NCBI GenBank assembly: GCA_036785375.1 | Contig: JAWMAR010000588.1 | Location: forward strand, 1 to 63,220 | Length of the DNA: 63,220 nucleotides | Direction: 5' to 3' | Source: Leucoraja ocellata | Taxonomy: Eukaryota | Part shown: piece by piece, positions 2,188 through 23,100 of the stretch | How positions within the stretch are numbered: position 1 is the first letter of the stretch | Layout: each line of letters begins with the position of its first letter | Made by a program: the position numbers

Positions 2188-5100
2188 TGTAAACTTTCAT
2201 CCCATGTGCCTTTCAATATGGGTTGAGCCAATTGGGTTGAGCCAATTCATCTTCCCATGTTCGTCTATATGACTCTGATGACGGAATGTCAGTATCTAAA
2301 AGGGTATTATACATATAAGATATTAGTTTATTTGTATTGCGATGTCGCTTCAGACATTCATCAAGGATTTGCGTATGTAATTTTACAGTTTCCATGCTGT
2401 ACTTGAGAAAAAGTAATTATTCGTATTTGCACCATCACCGTAAATGCAGGGACGTTCATTCCTGGGCAAAATACCTCAGGGCACGGGTAAACGCGGGGAG
2501 ATGTTACCCAGATAGCGATTACACAATTGTTCGGTAGACCTAGATAGGCCTTAGCCTCGTATCATTTCTTGTGTTTGTTCAGTAAGGTATCACATGAGCA
2601 AAATTAAGCTGCGTTTATCTAAAAGCTTTGGATACGAAGGGAATCAAACACATATTTTGTCGGAAGCTGTTGCGGCCTTCTATGACCCTCTCCTTTGTCT
2701 TTTCCTACAGCAATACACAACACAATGCAATGCCAAAATACAGGCAAAGTTGAACAAACGGAACACTTTCAACGAATGTCCAACCGTTGCTTTCAGTCTG
2801 TACGGACATTAAACATTTCCATCTCCTTCACCTTCTCTGGGAACCAGATCCCTTCCGGGTCACCTTCATGGGTTTCCATAAAGAACTCTTCAACAGGACT
2901 GAATATGGACACAACATACTGGAGTAACTCAGCCTGCAGGCAGCATCTCTGGAGAGTAGGAATGGGTGACTTTTCGGGTCGAGACCCTTCTTCTTCAACA
3001 GGGCTGACTAGCTTTCAATGGGTGTGCGATCTCGGTACCGACGTAATTTACTGAAGATCTCTGTTGCTCGGGTTGAGAATCAATCTAACAACCCGCTTGC
3101 GTGCATAGAATCTTGAGAAATATTTTTGCAATGGTGTATCGTTGGTGATGGAATTTCACAGGGTACCTTTGACGGATTAATTGATGGGACTTCGGTGTCC
3201 TTGTGATGGGCTGTTGCCAGTATTATTTAGTTTCGTATATATTAGGATAAACTCTCACTTTGGGTTGGAAAAGGCAAGTCTTTACCAGTACCACGATGAC
3301 AACATTAATCGTTTTTAATTATTGGGAATAGAAATGCCACTGAGTTAAGAATGAATTCAATTTATAATATTACTGAATATGAACAGGATAGTGATGGAGA
3401 TGAGGTCCAGACTGTGGAAAGAACAATCAGACGGAGATATTTCAACATTTTAGTTTCAGTTTAGTTTATTGTCACATGTGCCAATACAGAGTACAGCGTT
3501 TGTTGCGTGCTAACCAGTCAACAGAAAGACAAAACATGATTACAATCGATGCATGTACACTGTATATACGTGGTAAGGAAATGAGGTTTAGTGCAAGGTA
3601 AAGCCAGCAAAGTCCAATCAAGGATAGTCGAGGGTCACCAAAGAGATGAGTAATAGTTTTTGCACTGCTCTCTGGTTGTGATATCTGGGCTATGTCCACA
3701 ATTTGCTACAATTTCTTACCGTCTTGAATGGAGCTGTTCCCAAACCAAGCTGTGATGCATCCTGATGAAATGCTTTCTATGGTGCATCTGTAGAAGTTCA
3801 TGAGAGTTAGTGGACATTAACTTACTTTAATCTTTTTTTGTAGCAAATTTGCACGCAATTGTCATTTTCTCCCGCGGAAATTGCGGACTCTCGAAATGCA
3901 TCACTCGTTACCCGTTGGGCATGGCGGTGGGCGATTTCAGGGTTCTGATAACTGAAGCATTCCTCTATGAGATAGTCAACGGCTACTTTCCATTCTCGAT
4001 ATTCTACCACACCACATTCTGCAGATGGTACATTGTGGCCCACTTTATTTCCATCGACTGCTCGGTTTGGCTACCCTTTGATCGGTTCAGTCCTTGCGGA
4101 CCAAGTATTGCCCTGAAAATACTGCAGCTGTGGTGATAGTTCCTTAAGCGTTATGCAGAATGCTCCATTATACTTTATATACGAACCGCGATAAATAATT
4201 GACAATATAGAGTGGTCCTGCTGTGTAAAGTCAACCTTTTACACTTTATCCATCTGGGTAGTATTTTTGTGGTTGGAATCCGTGTTAACAACTATTTTCC
4301 ATTTTGTGTTAATTTTGCTGCTCAACCTATTAACTATCAGGCACATTATCCTGGCAAATAGAGTGAGGACTCCGGTCAAACAAACAAGCTGAGAAGCACA
4401 CTGATGCCGAGATGGAGAACCGAAGGAAATCAATAATTTTGCTTCTCGCTATTTCTGGCAGCTTTATTTTGTTGTGGATGGTTATTTTTATATATTACAT
4501 ATATGTGCAATTTACTGACACGCAGTTTTTGGAAGCAAGTTATAACGACCCTTTCACCATAATGGAACAAACTGCGGTGTTTGAGTTGTTGCACAAACAG
4601 TATATTAATGCAGTGTTCCAGAAGAAATTTAGATAGGAGTTAAGAATATGGTTAAAGCCCCTTTCATTCTCATTGCTAATTCATTCAATTAGGTTCGACA
4701 CAAAATCTGGAATAACTCAGTGGGACAGGCACTATATCTGGGGAGACTGAGTGGGTAACGTTTTGGGTCGAGACCTTTCTTTGACTGGCTAAATAAAGTG
4801 TATTACTGTATCGAAAATTTACACGAATATGTTTCTGCTGGAGTAATTCAGCTGGATAAGCAGGATCACTGGATAAAATGAATGTGTCTCGACCTGAATG
4901 GTCACCCATTCCTTCTATCCAGCCATGCTGCCTGTCCCGCTGAGTTACTCCAGCATTTTGTGTCTATCTGCGGTGTAAACAAGCATCTGCAGTTCTTTCA
5001 CACACATTAATAACTTTCTTGCCCAAATGGAAGATATCGCAGTAGCTGTGTACATGGCACTCCTGAGAGTGAATACAACTGACATATGTTATGCTATCGA

Positions 5101-20100: not shown

Positions 20101-23100
20101 ATTTCCCCAATTCATTTCTGAACTTAACTCCTGTTTGTAGCGTCAACTTGACCATGCTTTTTATGTCCATTGATTGCTCTGTCTGGCTAACGGTAACTTT
20201 CACCTTCGATCGATTTGTTGCTATTTGTTGTCCAAAGTTACGAGGAAGGTATTGCACTGGGAAAACTGCGAGTTTGGTGATAGCAGTGGTGTGTTCCCTG
20301 AGTGTTATTGAAAATATCCCAATGTATTTTGTCTACGCACCACGAGAAATCATTAACAACGTGGCTTGGTCATGTGGCGTAACCCCAGACTTCTACACCT
20401 CACCGTTACTGGTAGCATTTTGGTCGTTCGAAACTATTTTAACCCCATTTATACCATTCCTACTGATCATGCTCCTCAACGCCCTGACAATCAGACACAT
20501 TATACACGCCAACAGAGTGAGGAGCAGTCTCCGAGCGAACAAGAAGGAGGAGAGCAGCGCAGATCAGGAGGTGGATAATAGAAGGAAGTCCATCATTCTA
20601 TTGCTGGCCGTATCCGGCAGCTTCGTGCTACTGTGGATGGTAATATTCGTGTGCTTCATCAGTGTACGATTTATAGACGTGCAGCTTTTAGCAACAGATT
20701 ACGACGACCCATTTACCGTGGCAGAACAATCCGGATACATGCTGAGGTGTCTGAGTGCTTGCACCAACACGTTTATTTACGCCGTGTCACAGACGAAATT
20801 CAGGGAAGAATTAAAAACCCTGTTTAGGGGTCCTTGCGGGTTCTTGTCTAATTCACTAAAGCACTTTTAATTTATCAGTGAAACCACAATTCATTTCAAA
20901 GTGACGTTATATTCGTGTTATTTTATTATATCCTACATCCCCATCCTCCTTCCTTTTCACCAGCTGGTCAAGGTCTTACTGTAATTCATGATCCCATTTC
21001 TACTGTGTGGGTTAACACGTCGTTTAACTTCATTGTGTATATGTATAAGGAGCTGATAGTTGAATATTGTATTCAGCATTGTTGCCAATAATGTGTCCTC
21101 CTGATCTGTTCGACACTTAAAGCCGATTTAATGGAAATTCGCTGTGCACTACACTGTGCATGTAAGCGCCCTTCCCTCCAAAAATCTGCCACCCTCTTTT
21201 AGCCCATCTACACTAATCTTAGTTTCCCATTTTGGTGGTTCACACAATTAACCGGTGATAGGGTCGTAAAGTCATACATTTCTGTATGCCTTTACGACCC
21301 TTTCATTTGTGTCGTCATTAAACAGTTGGCTTTAAAATACATATTTTATTCACCGCGGAGCAGGCGATACCTTACCTGGATCGCTGTTTGAAGCTCTGGA
21401 GTGTTGGGCCTGCTGCTTCAACATCATGGAGCTGTGGTTTGCGGAGCTCCCAGCCTCGAGCCGCGCTGATTTCAACATCGTGGAGCCCTGGGGTACCTTT
21501 GCCGAGGGCCGCTAGCGTGATTCTCCACCCAGCTAAGCCAGGAGGCGACTTCTCCGGTAGGAAGTGGCCGATTCGGAAGTCCAAGCCGCTGAAAATGTTC
21601 TCCTGTTCCGTTGTCGGATGGTGACCCCAAATTTCATTGCACCAATTGGTGCATGTGACAATAAGTGTCACTTGAATTGAATGTGGAATATTAATAAATA
21701 AATAAATTGCAAATACACTAAGAGCTATAATGTTTTTTTCTCGCCTTGTTCATAGCAAAATCATCCAGAGGTTCACCAAGGAGATGTCAGGCAAGCTGAT
21801 TCAGTGTGGTGCTTGCAGTATGTGGGAGGTCAAGGACACTGCTGGTGCCTCTGGCTGCTACAAATATGTTAAGTGCATCCAGGTACAACTCCTGGAGGAC
21901 CGTGTTGGGAAATTGGAGAAGCAAGTGGATGACCTCAGGTTCGTCCGAGATTCTGAGTCGTTCCTCGACAAATCCTACAGTAAAAGGGAGGGAAGCATGG
22001 AATGCAAACGTCCCCGGGTCTTGTACCTCTTGTGAATAGGTTAACCCACTTAGAAACTGTCGGGTCAGAAGACGTTATTACACTGAGCGGCGGACTGGCT
22101 TGCGAAGCAAAAAGGGCTGTTGGGCCAAAACCAAAGAGGCCAATGTCAGGCAATGCCATTGTAGTGGGAGACTCCATTGTGAGAGGTACGGACAGTGGTT
22201 TATGCGGCAATAGACGGGATTCGAGGATGGTGTGCTACCTTCCTGGTGCCAGGATTCAGGGTGTCACGGACAGAGTGCAGAAAATCCTCAAGGGCGAATG
22301 TGAACAGCCTGAGGTGGTAGTGCATGTCGGCACAAACGATGTCGGAAAGAAGGTGATGACTATGCTGCAGCGTGACATCAGAGAGCTCGGAAAAATGCTG
22401 AAAAGCAGGACCTCCAGTGTTGTTATCTCCGGTTTGCTTCCAGTTCCTCGTGCTGGCGAGAGCAGGAACAGGGAGATACGGAACCTAAAGGTGTGGCTGA
22501 GGAACTGGTGCACGGGGCAGGGATTTCGATGCTTAGATCACTGGGATCTGTTTTGGAGTAAGGGGGAACTGTACAAAAGGCACGGATTGAATCTTCACAG
22601 GTGGGGGACAAGCATTCTGGCAGGCGTGTTTGCCACTGCTACACGGGTGGTATTAACCATATAACCATATAACCATATAACAATTACAGCACGGAAACAG
22701 GCCATCTCGACCCTTCTAGTCCGTGCCGAACAGGTATTCCCCCCTAGTCCCATATACCTCCGCTCAGACCATAACCCTCCATTCCTTACCCGTCCATATA
22801 ACTATCCAATATATATTTAAATGATAAAAACGAACCAGCCTCCACCACCTTCACTGGAAGCTCATTCCACACAGCCACCACTCTTTGAGTAAAGACGTTC
22901 CCACTCAGGCTACCCCTAAACTTCTGTCCCTTAATTCTCAAGTCATGTCCCCTTGTTTGAATCTTCCCCACTCTCAGTGGGAAAAGCTTATCCATGTCAA
23001 CTCTGTATATACCTCTCATCATTTTAAATACCTCAACCAAGTACCCCTTTAACCTTCTGCGCTCAAAGAATAAAGACATAACTTGTTCAACCTTTCTCTG

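What the first reader, a model, noticed from the sequence alone, without database searches (positions are those of the whole stretch)
3844..20870. MHC class I-like gene interleaved, in the same orientation, within a tandem cluster of orphan GPR139/142-like GPCRs
Seen: GPCR pseudogene (3.8-4.7 kb), class I-like alpha2 and alpha3 exons (10.5-13.0 kb) and an intact GPCR (15.9-20.9 kb), all on +. Known: mammalian extended MHC regions carry odorant-receptor clusters, and mouse H2-M1/M10 class Ib chains are co-expressed with V2R receptors. Inference: this may be a repeating [GPCR + nonclassical class I] cassette, or an MHC-linked receptor cluster in a cartilaginous fish. It is the best candidate here for an undescribed system, but one window with a dead class I copy cannot establish a functional link.
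Basis: partly seen in the sequence, partly recalled or inferred. Interest (0 to 1): 0.7.

Follow-up and report, generated by a model that had tools for sequence, protein, structure and literature searches.

The report
Dead class I relic among skate GPCRs
In a skate genome, a broken two-exon remnant of a nonclassical MHC class I gene sits between one dead and one intact member of a large orphan receptor family that appears to share a chromosome with the MHC in sharks and rays; the adjacency looks like a by-product of gene duplication, not a working gene pair.

Summary
All features are on the + strand. They are a decayed GPCR exon (3834-4669), class I alpha2 (10502-10792) and alpha3 (12734-13002) exons, and an intact two-exon GPCR (15850-15919 + 19960-20870).

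The class I copy is dead. TGA replaces the conserved Cys164 codon, and no alpha1 or transmembrane exon is found anywhere in the 63 kb. It is an unprocessed duplicate (83-84% aa identity) of an elasmobranch-wide nonclassical lineage that RefSeq names "MR1-like"; the nearest solved structure is 9CH4.

The GPCRs belong to a large elasmobranch family with lineage-specific expansions. RefSeq labels it "GPR139", but it is only distantly related to GPR139.

A repeating [GPCR + class I] cassette is not supported. There is one class I relic, the two GPCR copies are 69% identical in DNA, and the flanks share only transposons.

In 11 of 13 species with usable data, family GPCRs and class I genes lie on the same sequence record, including one 530-kb scaffold. 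I found no paper describing this. Distances to core MHC genes and expression could not be checked.

The parts
3834..4669 (+). Pseudogene relic of the large coding exon (exon 2) of a family GPCR; at least two frameshifts, in-frame stops and deletions in TM3; no exon 1 found in the window
   Evidence: best local blastx hits 64-70% aa in pieces; exon 1 search
10502..10792 (+). Class I alpha2 exon, phase 1 after AG at 10500-10501. The 3' end is uncertain: the position where relatives end the domain reads GC, and the next in-phase GT is at 10793
   Evidence: Pfam MHC_I 40.7 bits; 84% aa identity to P0122; sequence read
10726..10728 (+). TGA stop exactly where all six aligned relatives have the conserved alpha2 cysteine (..LLEKDCVKWLL..)
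   Evidence: C234 of P0125 is invariant in A1
10891..11709 (+). Transposon-derived ORF inside the alpha2-alpha3 intron; 72-90% identical copies at 27.8, 34.0, 37.1, 41.3 and 61.8 kb. The intron's presence shows the class I copy is an unprocessed duplicate
   Evidence: no Pfam match. Its assignment to a LINE 3' part is my inference from its repetition
12734..13002 (+). Class I alpha3 (C1-set Ig) exon, open frame, phase-1 acceptor AG at 12732-12733. The only GT at its end (13003) is one base out of the phase-1 pattern
   Evidence: Pfam C1-set 49.5 bits; 83% aa to P0122, 99% to RefSeq model P0121; sequence
15850..15919 (+). Exon 1 of the intact GPCR: ATG, N-terminus and start of TM1 (23 codons + 1 base); GT donor at 15920
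19960..20870 (+). Exon 2 of the intact GPCR (rest of TM1 to the stop at 20868-20870). With exon 1 it gives 326 codons, the same length as P0004. It keeps all 45 invariant columns of alignment A2, of which it is itself a row

Best explanation
The window comes from a skate (Leucoraja erinacea or a very close relative). It lies in a region populated by a large, elasmobranch-wide family of orphan class A GPCRs that evolves by birth and death. RefSeq labels this family 'probable GPR139'.

Two family members lie 16 kb apart in the same orientation. One is long dead (3834-4669). The other is an intact two-exon, 326-codon gene (15850-15919 + 19960-20870) that most likely encodes a working receptor of unknown ligand.

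Between them lies an unprocessed pseudogene relic (alpha2 + alpha3 only) of a conserved elasmobranch nonclassical class I lineage. I infer that it arose by segmental duplication of the skate's intact-looking copy (P0122) and then lost Cys164 to a stop codon, together with its alpha1 and transmembrane exons.

The two gene families are neighbours because the GPCR family sits on the same chromosome as the class I genes, i.e. the MHC-bearing chromosome, in sharks and rays. Duplication-prone arrays there shed copies into each other.

Shown: the anatomy, the lesions, family membership and sharing of records. Inferred: the duplication mechanism, true closeness to the core MHC, and the absence of functional coupling.
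For: Lesions:
- TGA at 10726-10728 in place of the invariant cysteine.
- A profile of six full-length relatives searched against all six-frame pieces of the window finds only alpha2 (in two pieces, E 5e-43 and 2e-5) and alpha3 (6e-42). Nothing matches alpha1 or the TM/cytoplasmic part below E 1.7. tblastn with P0122, P0123, P0125 and P0127 gives the same result.
- The intron is retained and carries a transposon, so the copy is not retroposed.

Lineage: 13 proteins from 12 elasmobranch species score 427-697 bits to the lineage profile. The next hit scores 347 bits. The window's alpha2 and alpha3 are 84% and 83% identical to P0122.

The RefSeq model of this locus (P0121) is stitched from a minisatellite ORF, a truncated alpha2 that stops before the TGA, and intron read-through into alpha3.

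GPCR family:
- All 113 named proteins among the 120 best hits are elasmobranch.
- 111 representatives at 50% clustering reach E<=1e-30.
- The tree shows species- and order-specific clades. The window gene groups with three Rhinoraja proteins at 89-90% identity.

Linkage by identical record length: 11 of 13 species share a record. Counts of listed GPCRs on the class I record are Heterodontus 22 of 23, Stegostoma 5 of 5, Rhincodon 5 of 5, Mustelus 2 of 2, Hemitrygon 2 of 2, Pristis 1 of 1, Hemiscyllium 1 of 1, S. torazame 1 of 1, S. canicula 1 of 2, Narcine 1 of 2 and Heptranchias 1 of 27. The Heptranchias record is a 529,794-bp scaffold that also holds the lineage ortholog P0130 and a second class I gene, P0138.

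Verissimo et al. [quoted passage not shown]

No cassette: self-blastn finds only transposon copies shared between the flanks.
Against: Sharing a record means sharing a chromosome of 20-376 Mb, not adjacency. Only the window itself and the 530-kb Heptranchias scaffold show closeness.

In Heptranchias most listed GPCRs lie on records other than the class I scaffold. In S. canicula and Narcine one of two listed GPCRs lies on another chromosome. Leucoraja (0 of 3) and C. plagiosum (0 of 1) share no record, but their GPCRs sit on small contigs.

No Rhinoraja class I protein appears among the 120 listed, so the 41.5-Mb Rhinoraja record holding 19 of 21 listed GPCRs cannot be tied to the MHC.

Species are related, so the 11 agreements are not 11 independent events.

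Alpha1 or TM exons could lie outside the window. Expression of either gene was not testable.
Confidence: 0.62

Rival explanations
1. Functional pairing. The GPCRs and the nonclassical class I genes form a co-regulated or co-expressed unit, as mouse V2R receptors do with H2-Mv class Ib chains, and the window shows one decayed unit of a repeating cassette.
For: Same orientation and interleaving within 17 kb. Both families share records in 11 of 13 species, and a lineage ortholog and a GPCR share a 530-kb scaffold.
Against: The class I copy is dead. There is one class I piece against two GPCRs, and none in the other 42 kb. No flank homology is seen. One search lists one or two lineage proteins per species (13 proteins, 12 species), against 23 and 27 listed family GPCRs in Heterodontus and Heptranchias, so the numbers do not fit one-to-one units. 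The receptor is class A with a 23-codon first exon, unlike class C V2Rs (the V2R comparison is recalled knowledge).
Confidence: 0.07
2. The class I gene is alive. The TGA would be a sequencing error, an allele or a recoded codon, and the alpha1, leader and TM exons would lie outside the window or be too diverged to see.
For: The alpha3 frame is fully open and alpha2 has a single stop. An in-phase GT donor exists at 10793. RefSeq carries a protein model for the locus (P0121).
Against: No alpha1 is found in the 10.5 kb upstream or anywhere else in the window. No TM exon is found in the 2.8 kb before the next gene's first exon. P0121 avoids the stop only by dropping the last third of alpha2 and reading intron sequence, and its first 94 residues come from a minisatellite region and an unrelated ORF. 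No SECIS element or any other Rfam family is found. The GT at the alpha3 end is out of phase (inference).
Confidence: 0.08
3. Dispersed relic. The GPCR array is not MHC-linked in any meaningful sense (same chromosome, but far away), and the class I fragment was carried there by an isolated duplication or transposon-mediated event.
For: Only chromosome-level sharing is shown for most species. The region is packed with transposons, including a 6.2-kb tandem duplication. Verissimo et al. do not mention such GPCRs in their main text.
Against: The Heptranchias 530-kb scaffold holds two class I genes and a family GPCR. Chromosome sharing is seen in both sharks and rays, including small chromosomes of 19.9-32 Mb.
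Confidence: 0.2

Closest known systems
Elasmobranch nonclassical class I lineage that RefSeq names 'MHC class I-related gene protein-like' (P0122 Leucoraja, P0125 Pristis, P0123 Hypanus, P0124 Mobula, P0127 Pristiophorus, P0133 Stegostoma and others)
   Same: The window's alpha2 and alpha3 are 84% and 83% identical to P0122 and carry the lineage's conserved alpha2 stretch (NKYFK.LLEKD-VKWLLIYLECGQEA).
   Different: The window copy has a stop at the conserved cysteine and lacks alpha1, TM and cytoplasmic exons. It is a relic, not a member that can make a heavy chain.
PDB 9CH4 chain A ('Ig-like domain-containing protein'), and the CD1-like, MHC-linked shark and ray lineages UFA/UGA mentioned in PMC10751288 and PMC12562908
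   Same: 9CH4_A is the best solved match of the lineage: 246 bits to P0127 and 214 bits to P0133, ahead of MR1 at 217 and 181 bits. The window's alpha3 alone hits CD1c/CD1b chimeras, CD1e and 9CH4 best.
   Different: The score is too low for orthology, even for the Stegostoma protein P0133. Whether 9CH4 is UFA or UGA, and whether this lineage is either of them, could not be checked. The papers give no sequences in the passages I read, and the data are cited there as unpublished.
Mammalian MR1
   Same: It is the best named match of the alpha2 exon (E 9e-9 to 4e-8) and the source of the RefSeq name.
   Different: The similarity is distant, about 36-38 bits for the exon. The review passage read tabulates MR1 as absent from cartilaginous fish. 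Ligand-binding residues were not examined.
GPR139 (and GPR142)
   Same: Class A receptor. GPR139 is the top solved match of a 25-sequence family profile over the full length (62.7 bits, E 2.6e-16).
   Different: Within-family scores are 180-590 bits. The window protein alone scores 35.3 bits to GPR139, over its first third only, which is below vasopressin V2 receptor at 47.7 bits. This is a multigene family with lineage-specific expansions, not a single conserved brain receptor.
MHC-linked olfactory receptor clusters of mammals, and mouse V2R with H2-Mv class Ib (both recalled knowledge)
   Same: A GPCR multigene family on the MHC-bearing chromosome, here physically interleaved with a class Ib-derived sequence.
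   Different: The GPCR family is different (not OR, not V2R). Closeness to the core MHC is not shown, there are no expression data, and the class I partner here is dead.

Membership tests
MHC class I heavy chain gene (functional) | alpha1 + alpha2 groove domains (Pfam MHC_I) | tested here: not met
   Only the alpha2 part matches (profile positions 92-161 of 179, 40.7 bits). No alpha1 is found in the window by tblastn or by the lineage profile.
MHC class I heavy chain gene (functional) | alpha3 C1-set Ig domain | tested here: met
   C1-set 49.5 bits against a cut-off of 21; open frame.
MHC class I heavy chain gene (functional) | alpha2 disulfide cysteines (Cys101/Cys164, numbering recalled) | tested here: not met
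   The first cysteine is present (..DFCGCEV..). The second codon is TGA at 10726-10728, where all six relatives in A1 have C.
MHC class I heavy chain gene (functional) | transmembrane/cytoplasmic exons and an uninterrupted reading frame | tested here: not met
   No match to profile positions above 270 at E below 1.9; stop in alpha2.
Elasmobranch 'MR1-like' nonclassical lineage (P0122-P0134) | High identity to lineage members and a clear score gap to other class I genes | tested here: met
   84% and 83% aa identity to P0122, 77% and 66% to P0125. Lineage members score 427-697 bits and the next protein 347 bits.
CD1-like UFA/UGA lineages of sharks and rays | Sequence identity with the named lineages; lipid-binding groove | not testable with these tools
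   No named UFA or UGA sequence was available. Only mentions in PMC10751288 and PMC12562908 were seen. 9CH4_A is related to the lineage at 214-246 bits.
Rhodopsin-type (class A) GPCR | 7tm_1 domain across TM1-TM7 | tested here: met
   77 bits against a cut-off of 30.5, profile positions 2-260 of 260. The D-R-F and N-T-F-I-Y motifs are read in the ORF.
GPR139/GPR142 orthologs | Closest and strong similarity to GPR139 | tested here: not met
   35.3 bits over residues 9-133 only, below V2R at 47.7 bits. The family profile scores 62.7 bits to GPR139 and 50.8 to TRHR. Nearest non-family representatives score 51-53 bits to GPR139.
Elasmobranch 'probable GPR139' multigene family | At least 55% identity to family members, two-exon structure, family-invariant residues | tested here: met
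   89-90% to Rhinoraja P0001-P0003, 72% to Hemitrygon P0004. Exon 1 matches the N-termini of relatives. 45 invariant columns are kept in A2, which includes the window row.
MHC-linked receptor cluster | Receptor genes within or bordering the MHC | tested here: inconclusive
   Same record as class I genes in 11 of 13 species, including one 530-kb scaffold. Positions along the chromosomes were not available (could not be made).
V2R/H2-Mv-type receptor-class Ib partnership | Co-expression and physical association of receptor and class Ib chain | not testable with these tools
   No expression data. The class I copy here cannot make a full chain.

The most novel reading that the evidence does not exclude
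The large elasmobranch 'GPR139-like' receptor family is embedded in or borders the MHC class Ib region across sharks and rays. That would be an ancient MHC-linked GPCR cluster, parallel to the MHC-linked odorant receptor clusters of tetrapods but built from a different receptor family. Its members may be chemosensory or immune receptors whose evolution, and perhaps expression, is tied to neighbouring CD1/MR1-like class Ib genes. The window would then be a decayed trace of that intermingling.
Probability: 0.12. Interest if true: 0.75.

Novelty: new variant of a known kind. Interest (0 to 1): 0.4.

Why it matters
MHC-linked receptor clusters have fed long-running ideas about MHC-dependent chemical communication (recalled knowledge). 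Cartilaginous fish are the oldest lineage with an MHC. Verissimo et al. [quoted passage not shown]

If a fast-duplicating orphan GPCR family lies inside or next to that region in both sharks and rays, two things follow. The association of GPCR arrays with the MHC would be far older than tetrapods and independent of receptor type. The family, which no paper I could find describes, would also get a first clue to its biology.

If the arrays are merely on the same chromosome, the window is an ordinary pseudogene among paralogs.

Tried and rejected
Selenocysteine reading of the TGA: no SECIS or any other Rfam family was found in the window (0 matches), and the missing exons make decay the simpler reading.

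Processed pseudogene: rejected, because the alpha2-alpha3 intron is retained.

Recent tandem duplicate of the GPCR: rejected (69% DNA identity, many indels).

Search for alpha1, TM exons and a second class I copy: nothing found.

Search for a second GPCR exon 1, for the pseudogene: none in the window. By the intact gene's 4-kb intron it would fall at or before the window start.

Accession-order proxy for gene adjacency through the listing of cluster members: the query could not be made, so positions along chromosomes stayed unchecked.

ESM Atlas look-up for the GPCR: only generic class A clusters named 'probable GPR139' or 'FMRFamide receptor-like'; no new lead.

Literature: searches for GPR139 + shark (4 papers, none relevant by title and abstract), 'GPR139-like' (0 papers), 'MHC-linked' + 'olfactory receptor' + 'cartilaginous fish' (4 papers, none on elasmobranch GPCRs by title and abstract), GPR139/GPR142/phylogen/cartilaginous (none listed with 'cartilaginous'), and 'coupled receptor 139' with elasmobranch terms (no listed paper contains the phrase).

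Almeida et al. 2020 and 2021 (PMC7002201, PMC8454915) are not held. Supplements of PMC10751288, which may list the genes of the shark MHC maps, were closed.

A complex prediction between GPCR and class I was not run, because neighbouring genes alone do not justify it and the class I copy is dead.

The spliced models (GPCR exon 1 + exon 2; alpha2 + alpha3) were searched exon by exon only. The joined step was left out.

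
Full report
**What is there**

The window is eukaryotic, about 33-51% G+C in 2-kb windows, with one 200-base N run at 40895-41094 that I left untouched.

- GPCR pseudogene. A GPCR-like stretch at 3834-4669 is readable only by changing frame (3, 1, 2, 3) and contains in-frame stops.
- Class I exons. An ORF at 10438-10728 matches the alpha2 part of Pfam MHC_I (40.7 bits, cut-off 28.3). An ORF at 12634-13017 matches the C1-set Ig domain (49.5 bits).
- Intact GPCR. An ORF at 19932-20870 matches 7tm_1 over the whole profile (77 bits) but has no start codon before TM2. 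Its first exon is at 15850-15919 (MKQPVIIQVENIYYPILAIIGIP plus one base). It matches the N-termini of relatives at E 4.7e-11 and is the only such hit in the window. A GT donor at 15920 and an AG acceptor at 19958-19959 join the two exons in frame, giving 326 codons.

I searched the two exons separately and left the joined model out of all searches. The same holds for alpha2 + alpha3.

**Species**

The alpha3 ORF is 99% identical to a RefSeq model of Leucoraja erinacea, P0121. The GPCR is 89-90% identical to three Rhinoraja longicauda proteins.

**The class I element is a relic**

Read in the frame of its relatives, alpha2 starts after the AG at 10500-10501 in phase 1. It runs open to about 10792 except for one TGA at 10726-10728. 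That codon sits exactly where all six aligned full-length relatives have the invariant cysteine of ..LLEKDCVKWLL...

Alpha3 starts at 12734, after the AG at 12732-12733, and is open.

A profile of the six relatives, searched against all 2,612 six-frame pieces of the window, finds only alpha2 (two pieces, either side of the stop) and alpha3. The best score for any alpha1 or transmembrane/cytoplasmic position is E 1.7. tblastn with four relatives agrees.

The 1.9-kb intron is retained and holds a transposon-derived ORF with copies elsewhere in the window. The element is therefore an unprocessed duplicate, not a retrocopy.

The RefSeq model P0121 is an artefact of this state. Its first 69 residues map to a 74-bp minisatellite region (8786-8992) and the next 25 to an unrelated ORF (9745-9819). 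Its alpha2 part ends before the stop, and its alpha3 part begins with 100 bases of intron.

A selenocysteine reading has no support: there are no Rfam matches, hence no SECIS.

**Which class I lineage**

The relic belongs to a well-separated elasmobranch lineage. Thirteen proteins from 12 shark, ray, skate and sawfish species score 427-697 bits to the lineage profile, against 347 bits for the next protein. The skate has an intact-looking, partial member on another contig (P0122). The relic is 84% (alpha2) and 83% (alpha3) identical to it.

RefSeq names the lineage 'MR1-like'. Among solved structures its best match is 9CH4 chain A (246 bits to P0127, 214 bits to P0133), followed by MR1.

A review passage (PMC12562908) and Verissimo et al. 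2023 (PMC10751288, passages) mention two CD1-like, MHC-linked, low-copy shark and ray lineages, UFA and UGA, from unpublished work. The lineage here may be one of them, but I could not test that.

**The GPCR family**

Of the 120 best database hits, 113 are named, and all of those are from elasmobranchs: none is holocephalan and none is from a bony vertebrate. Seven hits are unnamed.

Several species contribute many paralogs among the listed hits: Heptranchias 27, Heterodontus 23, Rhinoraja 21. In the library clustered at 50% identity, 111 representatives reach E<=1e-30.

A tree of the 113 named proteins plus the window's exon 2 (the seven unnamed ones were left out) shows species- and order-specific clades, the pattern of birth-and-death families. 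The window gene sits with Rhinoraja P0001-P0003 and then Hemitrygon P0004.

The 'GPR139' name is weak:

| Query | GPR139 (bits) | Best alternative (bits) |
|---|---|---|
| Window protein alone | 35.3, over its first third | Vasopressin V2 receptor, 47.7 |
| 25-sequence family profile | 62.7, top hit | TRH receptor, 50.8 |

Within-family scores are 180-590 bits. GPR139 is the nearest characterised receptor, but this is a separate orphan family.

The dead copy at 3834-4669 is 69% identical in DNA to the intact exon and has many indels, including losses in TM3. It is an old paralog, not a recent tandem twin.

**Cassette or neighbourhood**

The window holds one class I relic and two GPCR copies. 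The remaining 42 kb holds neither. That stretch consists largely of reverse transcriptase and integrase fragments and repeats.

Self-comparison finds nothing shared between the surroundings of the two GPCR copies apart from transposon copies. A repeating [GPCR + class I] unit is therefore not supported here.

**MHC linkage**

I could not fetch eukaryotic contigs, and the look-up that might have given accession order could not be made. The protein searches do print the length of the record on which each protein lies, and a length identical to the base identifies a record.

For 13 species, searches list record lengths for both a family GPCR and a class I protein. In 11 of them at least one GPCR shares its record with class I genes.

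| Species | Shared record (bp) | Listed GPCRs on it |
|---|---|---|
| Heterodontus | 74,466,956 | 22 of 23 |
| Stegostoma | 31,945,831 | 5 of 5 |
| Rhincodon | 25,067,188 | 5 of 5 |
| Mustelus | 140,552,254 | 2 of 2 |
| Hemitrygon | 214,355,867 | 2 of 2 |
| Pristis | 19,913,265 | 1 of 1 |
| Hemiscyllium | 49,326,738 | 1 of 1 |
| S. torazame | 228,959,330 | 1 of 1 |
| S. canicula | 163,470,629 | 1 of 2 |
| Narcine | 376,162,909 | 1 of 2 |
| Heptranchias | 529,794 | 1 of 27 |

The Heptranchias scaffold also carries the lineage ortholog P0130 and a second class I gene, P0138. The two misses, Leucoraja (0 of 3) and C. plagiosum (0 of 1), have their GPCRs on small unplaced contigs.

For the lineage orthologs specifically, 6 of 8 species share a record with a GPCR.

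[quoted passage not shown] The GPCR family therefore seems to live on the MHC-bearing chromosome in both sharks and rays.

Limits:
- Sharing a record is chromosome-scale.
- Species are related, so the agreements are not independent.
- No Rhinoraja class I protein was listed.
- Some GPCRs lie on other chromosomes.

**Is it in print**

Verissimo et al.'s main text contains no 'gpr', 'olfactory', 'odorant' or 'GPCR'. Its supplements were closed. Six searches found nothing on an elasmobranch expansion of this family or on MHC-linked GPCRs in cartilaginous fish. Two likely relevant papers are not held.

**Verdict**

The cassette and functional-pair reading is not supported. The 'MHC-linked receptor cluster' reading is plausible and apparently undescribed, but it is shown only indirectly.

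The most likely account is that a class Ib duplicate landed among paralogous orphan GPCR genes in a duplication-prone, MHC-linked region and decayed. One GPCR neighbour stayed intact.

Interest is moderate. It rests on the linkage pattern, not on the locus itself.

Noticed in passing
window 24228-30462 and 30463-36698: A 6.2-kb head-to-tail duplication at 98% identity, carrying transposon-derived ORFs. It is either recent or an assembly artefact.
   Followed up: partly
window 7842-8043 and 8377-8819: G+C-rich minisatellites (77-bp unit, 2.6 copies; 74-bp unit, 5.5 copies) whose long open frames were used as the N-terminus of the RefSeq 'class I' model P0121.
   Followed up: partly
window 21984-22664 (+), 23592-24712 (-), 41965-42426 (+), 60694-61779 (-): Transposon proteins: a GDSL/OSK-like domain ORF, reverse transcriptase fragments and an LTR-type integrase with an SH3_Tf2-1 domain. 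No other host gene was seen in 21-63 kb among ORFs of 130 aa or more.
   Followed up: partly
window 13187-13441, 17665-17926, 19633-19898: Three copies (67-75% identity, one inverted) of a short interspersed repeat. One lies downstream of alpha3 and two lie in the GPCR intron, the last ending just upstream of the exon 2 acceptor.
   Followed up: no
window 55884-60004: A long, degenerate tandem array with many overlapping self-matches at 72-84% identity, in a G+C-rich stretch.
   Followed up: no
window 10783-10794, compared with P0122: Where non-skate relatives end alpha2 (..ALQRR), the window reads G|GC rather than G|GT. The skate paralog model P0122 also reads on for 13 more residues, so the alpha2 donor may have shifted in skates before the duplication.
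   Followed up: no
family-wide (alignment A2): TM7 carries N-T-F-I-Y instead of the usual N-P-x-x-Y. N269, T270, I272 and Y273 are invariant in the 25 aligned family members; the F is in the consensus but not among the listed invariant or near-invariant columns.
   Followed up: no
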